The notes below the pieces were generated by a model. It was not told the origin of the DNA. It was given only the letters and a program-made list of their open reading frames with translations, and did no database searches. DNA of 64,000 nucleotides from a phage: the NCBI GenBank assembly GCA_025823825.1, contig GCA_025823825.1_4720.1. The stretch is one strand, 5' to 3'. How positions within the stretch are numbered: position 1 is the first letter of the stretch; each line of letters begins with the position of its first letter. The translations under genes were made by a program, and so were the position numbers. Below, piece by piece: positions 2,789-34,698 of the stretch.

Positions 2789-3262
2789 ATGCCAGTTTCA
2801 TCCAAACCAAGAAAAAAATCAGTAGGAAAACCGAAAGCTCAGGAAACAACAGCAATTCGTTGGGACGAGTTACGTGAACCTATCGAAAACTGCGAATTGT
2901 TATTGGGCACCCTGGGTGCGGCTATTTACCAAGCGACGCAGCCCTGTCGTTTACGATTAACCCAAAACAAACGTGATGAGTTCGTTGCGTTATCAACAAG
3001 CACGAATAAAGATCTGACCGAACTTCAAACCGAGTTGACGACGATCAAGAACTCCATTACGCCGATGTACGGTAAAGAAGTCGATGAACAAAGTATTCTG
3101 TTACAGTACAACTACGGGATGTCGTTAATGAACATCCTGGAACGCGCATCCGATATTCTGCGTCCTGACGTTGCACGCCTGAGCCAACTGCGTGTTGAAG
3201 GGATGGAGAACCAGATCCGATTCGCTAACAGTGTTAAATCTCAAGGAGCCACCGAAGCATGA
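2789..3262 (+). CDS. hypothetical protein (157 aa), basic N-terminus
   Basis: ATG preceded by AGGAGT; stop TGA overlaps the ATG of the next gene (ATGA). Confidence 0.6.
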   Translation: MPVSSKPRKKSVGKPKAQETTAIRWDELREPIENCELLLGTLGAAIYQATQPCRLRLTQNKRDEFVALSTSTNKDLTELQTELTTIKNSITPMYGKEVDEQSILLQYNYGMSLMNILERASDILRPDVARLSQLRVEGMENQIRFANSVKSQGATEA

Positions 3263-4944
3263 GCGAACAAGAAAAAGAAGTCGTGACGAATCAGGAAGCC
3301 ACCGAACGTTCAGAGTCGTCCGTTGAAACTACGATTCCGGCAAGTTCCGAGCCGGTTGGTTCCGCACAGCAGGAAAGTAAAGACGAAGTCAGCACGACTA
3401 AAGAAGATGTAGTGGCTCCAGAAGCAACCCGTGAAGAAGAACCATCACATCCACCGCTAATCGATTTCTCGAAGGCGACGATACGTTTCCAATGCGAAGA
3501 CATTCGTCCTAAGAGCCCGAAGAAAACAAAACGCCAGCCGTTGGTGTTACCGTTATATTCTCCGCGTGTACAGACAACGTATTACCGGGAATACATCAAC
3601 GAAGCAATGGATACCGTACAAGCCATTGTCGCTCAACGCGGTAAACCGACAGACGAACAGTTTGATAAATTCAGTAAAGCGGTGGTGCAATCGGTTGCTG
3701 ATGGACAATATCATCCGCGTGGTCCAGCTCACGATCGTGCGTTGGAACGTAAGGGCAGTCAGTGGACTAACGTGCCCGTAGACTCATCGGGTGTTGGTCG
3801 CGTTATTCCTGGCATCCCGCAACCGAACCATATTCCTGATGATGTCGAAGCGCCGCTGACAGGAACCGATGCGATCTATTTTGCCATCCGTAATACGAAA
3901 TCAGGTGCGCCTGCGGTAATGCCGTTATGGCATAGCGGTATTAAGCTGCAGTTTAATCCGCCGTCAAATGAACGTGTTGCAATTATGCACGAACGTATTG
4001 CTCGCGATAAAATCCTGGGTGGACGTGATAGTACCGGCTTCCTGTTTTCGGCAACCTCGATTATCACCATGAAGCACGCAATCGAATTAGCATTAGAATG
4101 CTGCTACATGGCCAACGTACCTAACCTGGATATACAGCGTTTGAAAGACATTATTCCGGTTACCGATGTTCCAGCGTTATTGTTGAACGTGTTGGTAACC
4201 ATGTATCCGTACGGATATCCTTACGTACAGACCTGCTATCAGAATCCAGAAACCTGCGACTATCGTGTCGAAGATACCGTAAGCTTTGCGAAACTCTATC
4301 AAGTTGACAACAGCGCAATAACCAAACGTATGCGACAGATCATGACCGAAGGTCCGGTCATGACAGATGAACTTTTGCGTGAGTATGCAAACGAACTGGG
4401 TGAAACAAACTCCCGTACGCTGGATCTGTCCGACAACGGTTCTGTTATCATTGAGCTTGAAGTACCGAAGATCTCACGACAAATCGCCATGGGCGAACGC
4501 TGGTTAAGCGATACCCTGGAAGATCTGCGTGATATTCTATCGCGTCCGTCAATGACCGAAGAAGAGCGTGATCGTGTTATTCGTGAACGTCAGTTCTATA
4601 GCTGGATGCGTCAGTATGATGCGTGGATCAAATCGATGCACGTGTCAGTAAACGGTACCATGCGTCGTGTAAGCGATGCGGATACAGCAACGGTATTAGC
4701 GCAGCTGTCTCGTGATAGCGATCTTCGTGAACGCTATATCGATGGGTTGATGCAATTCATCGGTGATTCGACGATTGCGCTTGCAGCAATGCCTGCCTGG
4801 AAATGTCCGAAATGTAATGCCGATATTGCTGACAATCTGCGTGACCAGAAATACTACGATCTGATTGCTTTGGATGTACCCCAGCTTTTTTTTACCCTAA
4901 ACTCCGTCCAATCTCTTCAGGAGGGGATGGACGCGGTATTCTAA
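3259..4944 (+). CDS. hypothetical protein (561 aa) with acidic, Ser/Thr/Glu-rich N-terminal ~70 aa
   Basis: ATG 3259 preceded by AAGGAG and coupled to upstream stop; T8 run near the 3' end, see findings. Confidence 0.7.
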   Translation: MSEQEKEVVTNQEATERSESSVETTIPASSEPVGSAQQESKDEVSTTKEDVVAPEATREEEPSHPPLIDFSKATIRFQCEDIRPKSPKKTKRQPLVLPLYSPRVQTTYYREYINEAMDTVQAIVAQRGKPTDEQFDKFSKAVVQSVADGQYHPRGPAHDRALERKGSQWTNVPVDSSGVGRVIPGIPQPNHIPDDVEAPLTGTDAIYFAIRNTKSGAPAVMPLWHSGIKLQFNPPSNERVAIMHERIARDKILGGRDSTGFLFSATSIITMKHAIELALECCYMANVPNLDIQRLKDIIPVTDVPALLLNVLVTMYPYGYPYVQTCYQNPETCDYRVEDTVSFAKLYQVDNSAITKRMRQIMTEGPVMTDELLREYANELGETNSRTLDLSDNGSVIIELEVPKISRQIAMGERWLSDTLEDLRDILSRPSMTEEERDRVIRERQFYSWMRQYDAWIKSMHVSVNGTMRRVSDADTATVLAQLSRDSDLRERYIDGLMQFIGDSTIALAAMPAWKCPKCNADIADNLRDQKYYDLIALDVPQLFFTLNSVQSLQEGMDAVF

Positions 4945-5366
4945 TCGATCCGCGATACGGGTTACATGACGGACAACTTGTTCGTAATGATGAAAAAATC
5001 TGGGAATTGCTGTTAGCGCGTAAAGGCGATGGTGGCATGAAACTGAACATCGAAATGGGTATTGCGTACGATACCATGTTTGGCTTGTACGATCGTGTTA
5101 ACGACTGGACGCCGTTGAAATGGGTTGCTCAGCACCCCGCTGAAGATCCCTGGGACAGATTAGGGATTAAGCCCTTAATCGAGGATTATGTTCGATTCGG
5201 TATTAAAGAGTTCATGACGTTGGATGCGTTTTTACAAGCACCGTATCCTTACGCGCAAACGGTACTCAAAATCGCACAAGACGAACTGCGGAAACGTAGT
5301 GCGGTACTGGACGACGATGAGGACAAGTTACGACGAGAAGAAGAACGTTTACGAAACGGAAAATAA
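4845..5366 (+). CDS. downstream frame reachable by -1 frameshift from 3259..4944 (or an independent ~110-aa ORF from ATG 5037)
   Basis: Frame is stop-free from 4845; ORF track starts it at a TTG (5007); first ATG is 5037. Confidence 0.35.
   Translation, partial: PEILRSDCFGCTPAFFYPKLRPISSGGDGRGILIDPRYGLHDGQLVRNDEKIWELLLARKGDGGMKLNIEMGIAYDTMFGLYDRVNDWTPLKWVAQHPAEDPWDRLGIKPLIEDYVRFGIKEFMTLDAFLQAPYPYAQTVLKIAQDELRKRSAVLDDDEDKLRREEERLRNGK
4886..4893 (+). other. T8 homopolymer / candidate -1 slippery site (T_TTT_TTT in the zero frame)
   Basis: Eight T at 4886-4893 inside the overlap between the 3259..4944 frame and the -1 frame open from 4845 to 5366. Confidence 0.5.
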
Positions 5367-5367
5367 A

Positions 5368-5877
5368 ATGGCGAGATTTACCAGTTTGATTGGGTTGGAT
5401 ATTTGGGAAACACCGGCTGACGTTCGGGTTATTCCTGTCAACACCGTCGGTGTGATGGGACGCGGTCTTGCCAAACAGGCAGCCGATCGCGTCCCCGGTC
5501 TTCTTGAAGCGTACCGTAAGCAATGTCAAGATGGGTTTAAGGTGGGCGAAGTCGTATCGTATCAACACGGCGATAACGATCAACTCACCTACGTGTTGTT
5601 TCCATCAAAATCGGATTGGCGTGAAAGAACACGACGCGAGTATATCGTTAACGGATTACTGGCGTTAAAAGCGTGGTTATTGGAGCTTCAGTTCGAAAGA
5701 GACGGCTTCTCATACCAGCGTCCGGCTGAACCGCTGATTGTCGCAATTCCTCCGGTTGGTTCTGGTTGCGGTAATATCGGTTATGGACAATCTGAAACAA
5801 TCCAGCCTCAATGGGTACGCGCACAAATCAAACAGTATCTTGCCACCGTACCGAACGTTCATTTCTACTTGTTCTAA
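5368..5877 (+). CDS. macro-like domain protein (putative ADP-ribose binding/processing)
   Basis: Real start ATG 5368 (MARFTSLIGLDIW...); motifs VIPVNTVGVMGRGLA and IVAIPPVGSGCGNIGY resemble macro-domain Gly-rich loops. Confidence 0.5.
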   Translation: MARFTSLIGLDIWETPADVRVIPVNTVGVMGRGLAKQAADRVPGLLEAYRKQCQDGFKVGEVVSYQHGDNDQLTYVLFPSKSDWRERTRREYIVNGLLALKAWLLELQFERDGFSYQRPAEPLIVAIPPVGSGCGNIGYGQSETIQPQWVRAQIKQYLATVPNVHFYLF

Positions 5878-5942
5878 CGCAAAGGTAACATAACCCTCCT
5901 CCTTCCCTCACGGGTTGGAGGAGGGCTTATGCTGTTATGCTA

Positions 5943-6317
5943 TTAATGTTCGTTCCAGATGGCATCTTCCGGTGGAACAATAGGATCTTTCTTCGGCATT
6001 GATGGCACTTCATGACGATGCTTACGGAACTGCCTATCAATAACCTCACGAAGCCGGTACGCGTCAACCCAGGTTGATTTATTGAACAGCTCCAACGTCA
6101 CAGTTAATCGTGTTCTTGACATTGAATAGCTTTTCTTCGCAATCAAATTGGGATAATTCAGTTGAGCGAACCACGCACGTATTTGTGCTTCGGTAAAAGC
6201 GATGCTGTAATAACTAAGTTTACCGTCATTAAAATCGTGCGCGTGGGTGTAACGTCCAGCGTAACGCCAGACAAGATGCACATTCAGATCGATCCATGGT
6301 GGGGTGGTATCAGCCAT
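5943..6317 (-). CDS. hypothetical protein (124 aa)
   Basis: Minus-strand ORF convergent with 5368..5877; no motif recognised. Confidence 0.5.
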   Translation of the reverse strand: MADTTPPWIDLNVHLVWRYAGRYTHAHDFNDGKLSYYSIAFTEAQIRAWFAQLNYPNLIAKKSYSMSRTRLTVTLELFNKSTWVDAYRLREVIDRQFRKHRHEVPSMPKKDPIVPPEDAIWNEH

Positions 6318-26838: not shown

Positions 26839-27267
26839 TTATTCATTTTCAATAACTTTAAGATTCGGTGTACCAAGCGTTTTCTTCACCAACGCTTCGG
26901 CAACACGTTTCTCGATGAAATCGGTCGCATTGCTTCCGTCTATCGTACGCATGTCGCCACGGAAGTTATTGAAGACCATAAACAAGTCACAACCGTCGAT
27001 AGGTATCGCAAGATCATAACTGACTTGTGATGCCGTGAAATGGACACCCACGACAACGGCGGGAACGAATTTAACCGCTGTGTTATCTCCTTCTTCTCCG
27101 GTTCCGAACGGAAGCTCAACACGATCACCGATAGAGAACTGTGAGACATCATTAATCGCGTGAGTTAGTGCGATTCGTTGCATGTCGGCGATCTTTTCCT
27201 TATTCGCGTCGCAAGGTAGGTCCAAGACTTCTTCCAACGTGAAGAATTTACGATCGAACCAGCTCAT
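26839..27267 (-). CDS. hypothetical protein (142 aa)
   Basis: Minus-strand ORF; no motif recognised. Confidence 0.45.
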   Translation of the reverse strand: MSWFDRKFFTLEEVLDLPCDANKEKIADMQRIALTHAINDVSQFSIGDRVELPFGTGEEGDNTAVKFVPAVVVGVHFTASQVSYDLAIPIDGCDLFMVFNNFRGDMRTIDGSNATDFIEKRVAEALVKKTLGTPNLKVIENE

Positions 27268-27268
27268 G

Positions 27269-27802
27269 TTAAGCTCCTTTGTGTTTTACGGACGATGTTA
27301 ACCAGGACGATCTTACCGTGAAACCCTCAGACTCGTAGAACGCCTGGGCTTCATCATTGTCGGCGCGAACATCCAGACCGATAGAATGGCCACCGCACTG
27401 GTAAGCGATGTTGCGCGCCTCATTCATCAAGGCATGGCCGATCCCGCGTCCGCGATATTCGGGTTTTACAATAATCGATGTAACGTCATGAATGCCCATA
27501 TGGCTCTCTGTATTCACTTCCAAGAGGCCTACCGGCATCGAAGCGATAGCATCGATCATAACGACCAACATTGCAGTATCTGGTAAACGCTTTTCTAATT
27601 CTAAAGCATCGTACTCGCGTTTTAAATCGGGGATATTCTCAAACATAAACGTGGTAGCCCATGCCTCTGATTCTACATCGTCGAGAATACGGTACAGCTC
27701 ACGAATCTGTCGTTTATGTGGGTAAAGGTGTGGATCGGCAGCCGTTGAGGCGATAACGCAATAGAACGGTCGTTCATTAATAACTACTGTTTTGATGCTC
27801 AT
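27269..27802 (-). CDS. GNAT family N-acetyltransferase
   Basis: Acetyl-CoA binding motif IVKPEYRGRGIGHALMNEA and C-terminal AQAFYESEGF. Confidence 0.7.
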   Translation of the reverse strand: MSIKTVVINERPFYCVIASTAADPHLYPHKRQIRELYRILDDVESEAWATTFMFENIPDLKREYDALELEKRLPDTAMLVVMIDAIASMPVGLLEVNTESHMGIHDVTSIIVKPEYRGRGIGHALMNEARNIAYQCGGHSIGLDVRADNDEAQAFYESEGFTVRSSWLTSSVKHKGA

Positions 27803-33878: not shown

Positions 33879-34698
33879 AAACTATCAAATATTCTGAAAC
33901 CAAGTTTCTTGTTTCTACTTTTGCCGAAATCGTTCTTCGTACAGTTACAGGGTACAATTTTGTCGCCGAACTATAAATCTCTTCAGTCAACGCACAAGCA
34001 CTGTTGCTAATGATTGTAGGAATTCCCCGCGAGCGCAAGTTGTCAGCCTTTTCTGCAAGATAACGATGATCGTCTAATGTAAACCCCTCTTGAGTATAGC
34101 CCGTAAACGATGCGGTGGGGGAAATGGGAATATAAGGAGGGTCGCAATAAACGACGTCACCCGGAACCACCTTTTCAAGATGCTTCTGGAACCCACCACT
34201 TACAATTTCTACCCCCCCCCCCTCGACGAAGGCAGCCTGAAGATGGTTCGCTGCCAGACGCAATTCCTGTTTCGGGAAATAGACGGTCTTATACCGCCCA
34301 TGCGCAACATTAAATAAACCATCACGATTATAACGACATAAGCCATTGAAACCGTAACGGTTTAAATACATGAAGCAAACTGCGCGTTCCCACGGATCTT
34401 CAGCGCGGTTAAAACGTTCACGTATCTCGTAGTAGCTTCTGACGTCGGTAGGATCCGTTTGAAAAAGACGTTCCACTTCTTCGATGAAAGATTCTGGACG
34501 CGCTAGCAACGCAGACCATACTGAGAGAATATCCTCATTCGCATCACCTATCGAATACGCTGGGTACTTAAGAGCAAGCGTAACAGCGCCGGAACCAACG
34601 AATGGTTCAACAAGACGCTTTCCTTTAGGTAACACTTTTTCAATCTCAGGGATAAGCCTGGTTTTGTTCCCAAGCCATTTAAGAAATGTTCTGCTCAT
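33871..34698 (-). CDS. dam: Dam-type DNA N6-adenine methyltransferase
   Basis: N-terminal FLKWLGNKTRL and EPFVGSGAV, catalytic motif VVYCDPPY, NRYGFNGLCRYN block; contains a G11 run encoding EGGGV. Confidence 0.85.
   Translation of the reverse strand: MSRTFLKWLGNKTRLIPEIEKVLPKGKRLVEPFVGSGAVTLALKYPAYSIGDANEDILSVWSALLARPESFIEEVERLFQTDPTDVRSYYEIRERFNRAEDPWERAVCFMYLNRYGFNGLCRYNRDGLFNVAHGRYKTVYFPKQELRLAANHLQAAFVEGGGVEIVSGGFQKHLEKVVPGDVVYCDPPYIPISPTASFTGYTQEGFTLDDHRYLAEKADNLRSRGIPTIISNSACALTEEIYSSATKLYPVTVRRTISAKVETRNLVSEYLIVYE
34210..34231 (-). repeat. C11 homopolymer with flank TA-C11-TCGACGAAG (copy 2), inside dam
   Basis: Eleven C at 34212-34222 on plus strand, G11 on the dam coding strand. 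Confidence 0.7.

What the first reader, a model, noticed from the sequence alone, without database searches (positions are those of the whole stretch)
5368..5877. Macro-like domain protein next to the frameshift locus: possible counter to ADP-ribosylation-based defence
The product contains PVNTVGVMGRGLA and AIPPVGSGCGNIGY, resembling the two glycine-rich ADP-ribose-binding loops of macro domains. A phage macro domain could bind or hydrolyse ADP-ribose signals or remove ADP-ribosyl modifications placed by host toxins (a DarT-like toxin, for example). The assignment is by eye and is uncertain.
Basis: inference. Interest (0 to 1): 0.5.

Follow-up and report, generated by a model that had tools for sequence, protein, structure and literature searches.

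The report
Phage anti-DarT macrodomain (AdfM), already described

Summary
ORF 5368-5877 (+) encodes a 169-aa protein with both quoted motifs. It passes Pfam's Macro threshold. Its best matches among solved structures, by sequence and by predicted fold, are the DarG antitoxin macrodomains of Thermus aquaticus, M. tuberculosis and Thermosipho; TARG1 comes next.

The residues that matter for DarG activity are present: N25 (Taq N22), K81 (K80), W84 (W83), Q37, and G131/G133/G135. At the three positions where DarG and TARG1 differ, this protein is DarG-type. It lacks DarG's C-terminal DarT-binding domain and has no darT neighbour, so it is an orphan antitoxin.

[quoted passage not shown] The protein is 97% identical to Goslar gp83 and 31-32% identical to PhiKZ gp104. 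PhiKZ gp104 is the experimentally characterised AdfM, which removes DarT2 ADP-ribose from ssDNA (Morgan et al., Cell Rep 2026). That paper lists Goslar gp83 as an AdfM homologue but did not test it.

The gene is under strong purifying selection (dN/dS about 0.07-0.09). Verdict: real, correctly interpreted, already known. The remaining open points are direct activity of the Goslar-type protein and the role of its altered second loop and two insertions.

The parts
5368..5877 (+). adfM-like gene: 169-aa stand-alone DarG2-type macrodomain (ortholog of Goslar gp83), stop codon included
   Evidence: ORF and sequence. Pfam Macro. DarG hits in PDB, NCBIfam and PADLOC. AF2 model pLDDT 87 with DarG macrodomains as top Foldseek hits. 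97% identical to Goslar gp83. 31-32% identical to PhiKZ gp104/AdfM, E=7e-25. dN/dS 0.06-0.09.
5434..5472 (+). Loop 1 motif PVNTVGVMGRGLA (residues 23-35); N25 (5440-5442) is the equivalent of TaqDarG N22 and PhiKZ AdfM N23
   Evidence: Alignment A2 and residue map. TaqDarG N22A and PhiKZ N23A reduce activity.
5599..5619 (+). FPSKSDW: catalytic Lys K81 (5608-5610; TaqDarG K80, PhiKZ K78, TARG1 K84) and W84 (5617-5619; TaqDarG W83, proposed to stack on the modified thymine)
   Evidence: Invariant K81 and W84 in A1 and A2. Roles of K80 and W83 from PMC5179494.
5743..5784 (+). Loop 2 motif AIPPVGSGCGNIGY (residues 126-139). G131, G133 and G135 match TaqDarG G117, G119 and G121. N136 replaces G122 throughout the Goslar clade.
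   Evidence: The model is least confident here, pLDDT <50 at residues 136-139.
5689..5733 (+). Insertion 1 (about residues 108-122, FERDGFSYQRPAEPL) relative to bacterial DarG macrodomains; PhiKZ gp104 has an unrelated insertion at the same place
   Evidence: Alignments A1 and A2; mean pLDDT 64 for residues 111-120.
5779..5808 (+). Insertion 2 (about residues 138-147, GYGQSETIQP) directly after loop 2; specific to the Goslar clade
   Evidence: Alignments A1 and A2; low pLDDT.
5037..5366 (+). Upstream gene (Goslar gp082 ortholog, unknown function). Its stop lies 1 nt before the macro start, so translational coupling is likely. Context only, not part of the mechanism.
   Evidence: The same gene pair is found in relatives L003, L004 and L006.
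5889..5931 (.). GC-rich hairpin between the convergent macro gene and the leftward gene 5943-6317; probable bidirectional terminator ending the gp080-gp083 operon
   Evidence: Fold -32.2 kcal/mol, z=-5.0, 0 of 200 shuffles as stable. Annotated as a terminator in Goslar. Not found by the T-run consensus scan.

Best explanation
The gene encodes an orphan, DarG2-type macrodomain ADP-ribosyl-DNA glycohydrolase: the Goslar-lineage member of the chimallivirus anti-DarT factor AdfM. During infection of an E. coli host that carries a DarTG2 toxin-antitoxin defence, DarT2 ADP-ribosylates thymidines in single-stranded phage DNA. This protein binds the ADP-ribose in the pocket formed by its two glycine-rich loops and cleaves the thymidine-ribose bond using K81, with N25 and W84 positioning the substrate. 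That restores unmodified DNA so that replication and packaging can proceed. Because it lacks DarG's C-terminal domain, it works only enzymatically and does not sequester DarT. Shown here: macro fold, DarG-type active site, absence of the C-terminal domain and of a darT partner, homology to AdfM, chimallivirus context, and purifying selection. Shown in the literature for homologues only: hydrolase activity, rescue from DarT2 toxicity, protection of phage, and import into the phage nucleus. Inferred for this protein: all four of those functional properties.
For: Family and fold: Pfam Macro above threshold. PDB by sequence gives DarG macrodomains at E=5.7e-15, and 145 bits with the family profile, against 55 bits for TARG1 and 25 bits for Poa1p. 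NCBIfam antitoxin_DarG matches only profile positions 7-146 of 338. PADLOC DarG E=4e-22. The AF2 model has pLDDT 87 and pTM 0.85. Foldseek ranks 5m3e, 5m31, 5m3i and 7omu (all DarG) first, with TM-score normalised to the target up to 0.88, then TARG1.

Active site: N25, Q37, K81, W84, G131, G133 and G135 are conserved. The three positions that separate DarG from TARG1 (N22, W83, G121) are all DarG-type (with residue roles).

Homology to AdfM: 31-32% identity over the full length to PhiKZ gp104, E=7e-25; each is the other's only significant hit in the other sequence searched (the PhiKZ record, this window). Both fall in the same PHROGs, 335 and 30914. Goslar gp83, 97% identical to this protein, is listed as an AdfM homologue in PMC13309987.

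Literature on homologues: PhiKZ AdfM removes DarT2 ADP-ribose from DNA, rescues cells from DarT2, and is needed for plating on DarTG2 strains. A DarG macrodomain alone is sufficient as an antitoxin in T. aquaticus and in EPEC. E. coli carries thymidine-targeting DarTG with a macrodomain DarG.

Context and selection: the window is collinear with the nucleus-forming phage Goslar. dN/dS is 0.06-0.09.
Against: No experiment has been reported on the Goslar-type protein; the paper tested PhiKZ and PhiPA3 functionally and Asesino only for localisation. The second ADP-ribose loop departs from DarG (G122 to N136, N120 to C134) and is followed by an 8-10-residue insertion that is modelled with low confidence. 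Other differences from TaqDarG are K29 to R32, T20 to P23 and H82 to D83. The protein is no closer to PhiKZ AdfM (81 bits) than to bona fide bacterial DarG (82 bits), and there is no shared synteny with PhiKZ gp104. So function is transferred across about 31% identity rather than across clear orthology.
Confidence: 0.85

Rival explanations
1. A general ADP-ribose-metabolite or protein de-ADP-ribosylase. This would be TARG1/OARD1-, MacroD- or Poa1p-like: an O-acetyl-ADP-ribose deacetylase, an ADP-ribose-1''-phosphate phosphatase, or a remover of protein mono-ADP-ribosylation. It would serve phage nucleotide or RNA metabolism, or counter protein-targeting toxins, rather than DNA repair.
For: Existing labels point this way. 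PHROG 335 is called 'phosphatase'. The Goslar record cites the conserved domain Macro_Poa1p_like. JGI names some homologues 'O-acetyl-ADP-ribose deacetylase'. TARG1 is the next-best structural match and shares the catalytic Lys.
Against: The family profile scores DarG at 145 bits against 55 for TARG1 and 25 for Poa1p. TARG1's second catalytic residue D125 is Gly here, and W84 and N25 are DarG-specific. The characterised homologue acts on ADP-ribosylated DNA.
Confidence: 0.06
2. A DarG-type hydrolase whose altered loop 2 and insertions have shifted its substrate. Candidates are other nucleic-acid ADP-ribosylations, such as RNA-targeting ARTs or other DarT-like toxins, or only particular E. coli DarT2 variants.
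For: The GGL-to-GN[IVF] change and the insertion after loop 2 are conserved across the Goslar clade down to 47% identity. That loop closes over ADP-ribose in TaqDarG. In relative L006 the macro gene has diverged more (36%) than its neighbours (55-64%).
Against: The catalytic Lys, the Asn and the thymine-stacking Trp are retained. PhiKZ AdfM also varies in this loop (A126 for G119) and is still active on DarT2 substrate.
Confidence: 0.06
3. A non-catalytic ADP-ribose reader or sponge that binds ADP-ribose-derived immune signals or ADP-ribosylated targets without hydrolysing them.
For: Macrodomains have repeatedly lost activity in evolution (title of PMC10221186, listed). Loop 2 is atypical.
Against: The catalytic K81 is invariant and N25 nearly invariant (absent only from TARG1) across all aligned homologues. 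Strong purifying selection does not by itself distinguish the two readings, but no sponge of this family is known.
Confidence: 0.03

Closest known systems
Goslar gp83 (YP_009820768.1), 'macro domain-containing protein'
   Same: Ortholog: 164 of 169 residues identical, same locus, same neighbours. Listed as an AdfM homologue in Fig. 1B of PMC13309987.
   Different: Five substitutions (D40E, Q54R, K58T, D69E, Q117H), none at active-site positions. RefSeq starts the Goslar gene 51 nt further upstream, which the evidence here does not support.
AdfM, PhiKZ gp104 (and PhiPA3 gp108, Asesino gp217), Morgan et al. Cell Rep 2026
   Same: A stand-alone DarG2-like macrodomain of about 160-170 aa in a chimallivirus. 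It has the same catalytic Asn and Lys (N23 and K78 in PhiKZ, N25 and K81 here), the same PHROGs, and each protein is the other's only significant hit in the PhiKZ record and this window.
   Different: Only 31-32% identical. It sits at a different genomic locus with no shared neighbours. Loop 2 is GSGCGN here and GCANGG in PhiKZ. The insertions differ. Each protein is at least as similar to bacterial DarG as to the other. Activity and nuclear import are shown for PhiKZ, not for the Goslar type.
DarG (DarG2) antitoxin macrodomain, T. aquaticus 5M31/5M3E, M. tuberculosis 5M3I, EPEC DarG
   Same: Best sequence and structure match. ADP-ribose-contacting and catalytic residues are conserved. The macrodomain alone suffices to reverse DarT toxicity.
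   Different: No C-terminal DarT-binding domain, no adjacent darT, phage-encoded, and two insertions.
AdfN (NADAR-domain orphan antitoxin of T4-like phages) and AdfA/AdfB
   Same: The same strategy: a phage-borne counter to DarTG. AdfN is likewise an orphan enzymatic antitoxin domain.
   Different: AdfN has a NADAR fold and is specific for DarT1 guanine adducts. AdfA and AdfB inhibit DarT directly. This protein is a macrodomain, expected to be specific for DarT2 thymidine adducts.
TARG1/OARD1 (human C6orf130)
   Same: The same macrodomain subclass and the same catalytic Lys position.
   Different: TARG1's D125 is Gly here. TARG1 lacks the Asn and the Trp (S and A at those positions). Profile score is 55 bits against 145 for DarG.

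Membership tests
Macro domain (Pfam PF01661) | Profile match above the curated gathering score | tested here: met
   25.9 bits against a cut-off of 22, residues 23-141 on profile positions 3-113 of 118.
Macro domain (Pfam PF01661) | Mixed beta-sheet sandwiched by helices, with an ADP-ribose pocket formed by two Gly-rich loops | tested here: met
   AF2 model pLDDT 87 with six strands and four helices. 163 PDB matches at E<=0.001, of which the 50 listed are macrodomain-fold structures, led by DarG. Both loops align with TaqDarG contact residues.
DarG antitoxin (NCBIfam NF048014, DarTG2) | N-terminal macrodomain with catalytic Lys (TaqDarG K80) and Asn (N22) | tested here: met
   K81 and N25.
DarG antitoxin (NCBIfam NF048014, DarTG2) | C-terminal DarT-binding domain; whole-protein score above the equivalog cut-off | tested here: not met
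   The protein ends after the macrodomain. 81.2 bits against a cut-off of 250; only profile positions 7-146 of 338 are matched.
DarG antitoxin (NCBIfam NF048014, DarTG2) | Encoded next to a darT toxin gene | tested here: not met
   The six flanking genes have no PADLOC hit. The neighbours are jumbo-phage genes, including a PhiKZ gp077 homologue and virion proteins.
AdfM (anti-DarT factor macro, chimalliviruses) | Encoded by a nucleus-forming (chimallivirus) phage | tested here: met
   The window is collinear with Goslar 87.5-153.5 kb at about 94% identity. Goslar is nucleus-forming.
AdfM (anti-DarT factor macro, chimalliviruses) | Stand-alone DarG2-like macrodomain homologous to PhiKZ gp104, with the conserved Asn and Lys | tested here: met
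   E=7e-25, 31% identity over 163 columns. Each is the other's only significant hit in the PhiKZ record and this window. N25 and K81 are present. Goslar gp83 is named in the defining paper.
AdfM (anti-DarT factor macro, chimalliviruses) | Orthology with PhiKZ gp104 (shared locus, or closer to it than to bacterial DarG) | tested here: inconclusive
   No shared neighbours. 81 bits to PhiKZ gp104 against 82 bits to the bona fide DarG P0052. The domain is too short and too divergent to resolve one acquisition from two.
AdfM (anti-DarT factor macro, chimalliviruses) | Removes DarT2-placed ADP-ribose from ssDNA and protects the phage from DarTG2 | not testable with these tools
   Shown for PhiKZ and PhiPA3 only.
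AdfM (anti-DarT factor macro, chimalliviruses) | Imported into the phage nucleus (PicA-dependent) | not testable with these tools
   Shown for the PhiKZ, PhiPA3 and Asesino proteins. No import signal is known at the sequence level.
TARG1/OARD1 | Catalytic Lys-Asp dyad (K84 and D125) | tested here: not met
   The Lys is present (K81), but the D125 position is G135.
Poa1p-like ADP-ribose-1''-phosphate phosphatase (the label in the Goslar record and PHROG 335) | Closest similarity to Poa1p-type macrodomains | tested here: not met
   Poa1p chains score about 25 bits with the family profile against 145 for DarG. In Foldseek they rank 21st or lower.

The most novel reading that the evidence does not exclude
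The Goslar-clade macrodomain may not be a simple copy of PhiKZ AdfM. It may be a separately acquired or strongly remodelled DarG derivative. Its conserved GGL-to-GN[IVF] change in loop 2 and its two surface insertions could then give it a different substrate range (other DarT2 variants or other nucleic-acid ADP-ribosylations), or could carry the determinants for selective import into the Goslar nucleus.
Probability: 0.12. Interest if true: 0.45.

Novelty: already known. Interest (0 to 1): 0.2.

Why it matters
DarTG2 is a DNA-targeting defence that reaches phage DNA even behind the protein shell of nucleus-forming jumbo phages, and AdfM is the counter-measure. Confirming the gene in a second Goslar-like E. 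coli phage adds one instance to a published story. It has practical value for choosing or engineering jumbo phages against E. coli strains that carry DarTG2. It also offers a natural sequence variant, with a changed loop 2 and two insertions, for structure-function and nuclear-import studies. It does not open a new question.

Tried and rejected
1. Longer ORF or frameshift reading. The in-frame extensions to 5224 (217 aa, as in P0001) and to 5317 (186 aa, as in RefSeq and P0003) were rejected. The reasons are the homologue N-termini, the absence of any extension in relative L003, and the substitution pattern.

2. Synteny with PhiKZ gp104. tblastn of six neighbouring window proteins against the PhiKZ locus found only the macro gene. 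gp082 and PhiKZ gp103 give no alignment, and the PHROGs of the neighbours differ.

3. A darT partner or any defence-system protein beside the gene: none found.

4. A sigma-70 promoter or a canonical T-run terminator for the gene: none found, and promoter-like sites were fewer than in shuffles, as expected for a phage with its own RNA polymerases. The hairpin at 5889-5931 was found by folding instead.

5. Weak Pfam DUF7242 and PHROG 2808 hits over residues 4-55 are below threshold and were treated as echoes of the same loop-1 region.

6. The word-indexed protein search returned only 15 hits. The exhaustive search returned 2890 hits, mostly macro proteins of about 150 aa.

7. Literature search for Goslar together with DarTG or macrodomain found only the AdfM paper as relevant; the Sharanji paper was irrelevant.

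8. I did not build a phylogeny. Pairwise scores already show the domain is too short and too divergent to separate chimallivirus clades from bacterial DarG with confidence.

Full report
**1. What is in the sequence**

On the + strand an ORF runs from ATG 5368 to the TAA at 5875-5877 and encodes 169 aa. PVNTVGVMGRGLA is residues 23-35 and AIPPVGSGCGNIGY is residues 126-139.

The same frame is open upstream to 5224, and RefSeq starts the orthologous Goslar gene at the position equivalent to 5317. Three observations favour 5368.
- All homologues, including PhiKZ gp104, begin MA[RNET]F.
- In a relative with 47% identity (L003) the gene starts 3 nt after the upstream stop and cannot be extended.
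- Between the window and an 88%-identical relative (L004), the changes in 5317-5367 are four synonymous and one conservative in the frame of the upstream gene, but five of six are non-synonymous in the macro frame.

The gene therefore starts 1 nt after the stop of the upstream gene (TAAAATG). It needs no frameshift.

**2. Is it a macro domain?**

Yes.
- Pfam Macro scores 25.9 bits, above the gathering score of 22.
- phmmer against PDB sequences gives the DarG macrodomains of T. aquaticus (5m31/5m3e, E=5.7e-15) and M. tuberculosis (5m3i, 3.9e-11), and the Thermosipho DarTG fusion (7omu).
- A profile of 14 homologues raises these to 145, 145 and 123 bits. TARG1 scores 55 bits and Poa1p about 25 bits.
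- NCBIfam's antitoxin_DarG model matches only its first 146 of 338 positions, at 81 bits against a cut-off of 250. PADLOC DarG gives E=4e-22.
- An AlphaFold2 model built from the alignment has mean pLDDT 87 and pTM 0.85. Foldseek against the PDB ranks 5m3e, 5m31, 5m3i and 7omu first, with TM-score up to 0.88 normalised to the target, and then TARG1.
- The viral structure library returns phage and RNA-virus macro domains.

**3. Active site**

I used the TaqDarG residue roles from Jankevicius et al. 2016 (PMC5179494) and alignment A2.

| TaqDarG residue | Residue here | Status |
|---|---|---|
| N22 | N25 | conserved |
| Q34 | Q37 | conserved |
| T79 | S80 | conservative |
| K80 (catalytic) | K81 | conserved |
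| W83 (proposed to stack on the thymine) | W84 | conserved |
| G117, G119, G121 | G131, G133, G135 | conserved |
| K29 | R32 | changed |
| T20 | P23 | changed |
| H82 | D83 | changed |
| N120 | C134 | changed |
| G122 | N136 | changed |

The alignment reproduces the published PhiKZ numbering (N23, K78), which validates the register.

At the three positions where DarG and TARG1 differ, this protein is DarG-type. TARG1 has S where DarG has N22, A where DarG has W83, and D125 where DarG has G121.

Relative to bacterial DarG macrodomains, the Goslar clade has two insertions (about residues 108-122 and 138-147) and GN[IVF] in place of GGL in loop 2. The model is least confident exactly there, with pLDDT <50 at residues 136-139.

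**4. What the protein lacks**

It has no C-terminal DarT-binding domain. It has no darT or other defence gene beside it. It is therefore an orphan antitoxin-type enzyme, not a DarG.

**5. Where it sits**

The window is collinear with Escherichia phage Goslar, positions 87.5-153.5 kb, at about 94% nucleotide identity. No other phage record matches at that level. Goslar is a nucleus-forming jumbo phage.

The protein is 97% identical to Goslar gp83, which RefSeq annotates as 'macro domain-containing protein'.

The gene is the last of a rightward cluster, gp080 to gp083. The 561-aa member of that cluster is a homologue of PhiKZ gp077 and is found in 159 records, nearly all of them jumbo phages of 220-320 kb. 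The cluster is conserved in three metagenomic relatives, L003, L004 and L006.

The cluster ends at a strong hairpin at 5889-5931 (-32 kcal/mol, z=-5) that faces a convergent leftward block containing at least one virion-type protein.

dN/dS for the macro gene is 0.06-0.09 in three pairwise comparisons, so it is a functional gene under constraint.

**6. What is already known**

Morgan et al., Cell Reports 2026 (PMC13309987) define AdfM, 'anti-DarT factor macro', from PhiKZ gp104.
- It is a DarG2-like macrodomain found in about half of chimalliviruses.
- It localises to the phage nucleus.
- It removes DarT2-placed ADP-ribose from a DNA oligonucleotide, and N23A reduces this activity.
- It rescues E. 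coli from DarT2.
- PhiKZ and PhiPA3 need it to plate on DarTG2-expressing hosts. Without it, DarT2 modifies phage DNA and blocks packaging.

Their Fig. 1B alignment includes Goslar gp83. The experiments used the PhiKZ, PhiPA3 and Asesino proteins, not the Goslar protein.

The window protein is 31-32% identical to PhiKZ gp104 over its full length (E=7e-25). Each is the other's only significant hit in the other sequence searched (the PhiKZ record, this window), and they share PHROGs 335 and 30914.

A DarG macrodomain alone is a sufficient antitoxin in T. aquaticus and in EPEC. E. coli has thymidine-targeting DarTG with a macrodomain DarG. The target system therefore exists in this phage's host species.

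**7. Mechanism, with the status of each step**

- Shown here: macro fold; DarG-type pocket with catalytic Lys, Asn and Trp; single-domain architecture; phage-nucleus lineage; selective constraint.
- Shown only for homologues: hydrolysis of thymidine-linked ADP-ribose on ssDNA; neutralisation of DarT2; protection of phage replication and packaging; import into the nucleus.
- Inferred for this protein: that it does the same in E. coli against DarTG2.

I put this at 0.85.

The main caveat is the variant loop 2 with its adjoining insertion, together with transfer of function across about 31% identity. Against that caveat, PhiKZ AdfM also varies in this loop (Ala for G119) and is active.

**8. A nuance on family membership**

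Pairwise scores show that the Goslar-type protein is no closer to PhiKZ AdfM (81 bits) than to a bona fide bacterial DarG (P0052, 82 bits). PhiKZ AdfM is closer to bacterial DarGs (95-103 bits) than to the Goslar type. The two phage genes also sit at unrelated loci.

'AdfM' is therefore well supported as a functional and homology class. Orthology, meaning a single acquisition in chimalliviruses, is not established. In relative L006 the macro gene has diverged more (36%) than its neighbours (55-64%). That fits either an arms race or gene replacement.

**9. Rivals**

- Generic metabolite or protein de-ADP-ribosylase. This is where the 'phosphatase', 'Poa1p-like' and 'OAADPr deacetylase' labels come from. 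It is disfavoured by the profile scores and the residue pattern.
- Shifted substrate range. This remains possible, but nothing beyond the loop-2 differences supports it.
- Non-catalytic reader. This is disfavoured by the conserved catalytic residues (K81 invariant, N25 absent only from TARG1).

**10. Verdict**

The finding is already known: the gene is annotated as a macro domain in RefSeq, and its 97%-identical ortholog is named as an AdfM homologue in the 2026 paper.

What remains is modest: a direct test of the Goslar-type protein, the role of its variant loop and insertions, and a start-codon correction for the RefSeq record.

Noticed in passing
window 5317-5367 (Goslar NC_048170 92868-92918): RefSeq starts Goslar gp083 51 nt upstream of the start supported here, which creates a 50-nt overlap with gp082. 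Homologue N-termini and the substitution pattern indicate the real start is ATG 5368, 1 nt after the gp082 stop (TAAAATG). Gene callers elsewhere also over-extend it, to 186 aa or 217 aa.
   Followed up: yes
window 5889-5931: A very stable GC-rich hairpin (-32 kcal/mol, z=-5) lies between the convergent genes. It has no T-run, so the consensus terminator scan missed it. Goslar annotates it as a terminator.
   Followed up: partly
window 1-64000: The whole window is collinear with Goslar 87.5-153.5 kb at about 94% nucleotide identity, and Goslar is the only near match in the phage collection. Only 85% of window 1-25000 aligns, in 11 pieces; that stretch includes the tail-fibre genes. This looks like a second, undeposited Goslarvirus lineage. 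Near-identical macro proteins occur in many SRA assemblies (a cluster of 232 members) and on an 809-bp contig labelled Salmonella Muenchen.
   Followed up: partly
window 3259-4944 (+) and 2789-5877: The 561-aa protein upstream is a homologue of PhiKZ gp077 and is present in 159 records, nearly all jumbo phages of 220-320 kb, so it is probably a core gene of unknown function. The four-gene cluster gp080-gp081-gp082-macro is conserved in metagenomic relatives L003, L004 and L006. In L006 the neighbours are 55-64% identical but the macro gene only 36%.
   Followed up: partly
protein P0033 (318 aa): A single protein fuses a DarG-type macrodomain (residues 6-153) to a NADAR domain (167-303). It therefore carries both known kinds of DNA de-ADP-ribosylase, the DarT2-type and DarT1-type antidotes, in one polypeptide. 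Its genomic context was not examined.
   Followed up: no
phage records (e.g. KM044272 SU10 34083-34424; MH673674 phiMa 27047-27466; NC_027402 SPN3US 174486-174848): DarG-like macrodomain ORFs also occur in phages with genomes far smaller than jumbo phages: E. coli and Shigella phages of about 77 kb such as SU10 (vB_EcoP-type names) and Thermus phage phiMa. They occur too in about 240-kb Salmonella and E. coli phages such as SPN3US. These may be further untested macrodomain anti-DarT factors outside the chimalliviruses.
   Followed up: no
locus L007 6001-6465 (138-kb Logan contig SRR26329226_4992): One of the closest non-Goslar relatives lies in a large phage-like contig with HNH, ParB, Rad52 and RNase T genes. 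By HMMER it is 47% identical over the matched stretch; by tblastn it is 35% over 160 aa. It shows no Goslar synteny.
   Followed up: no
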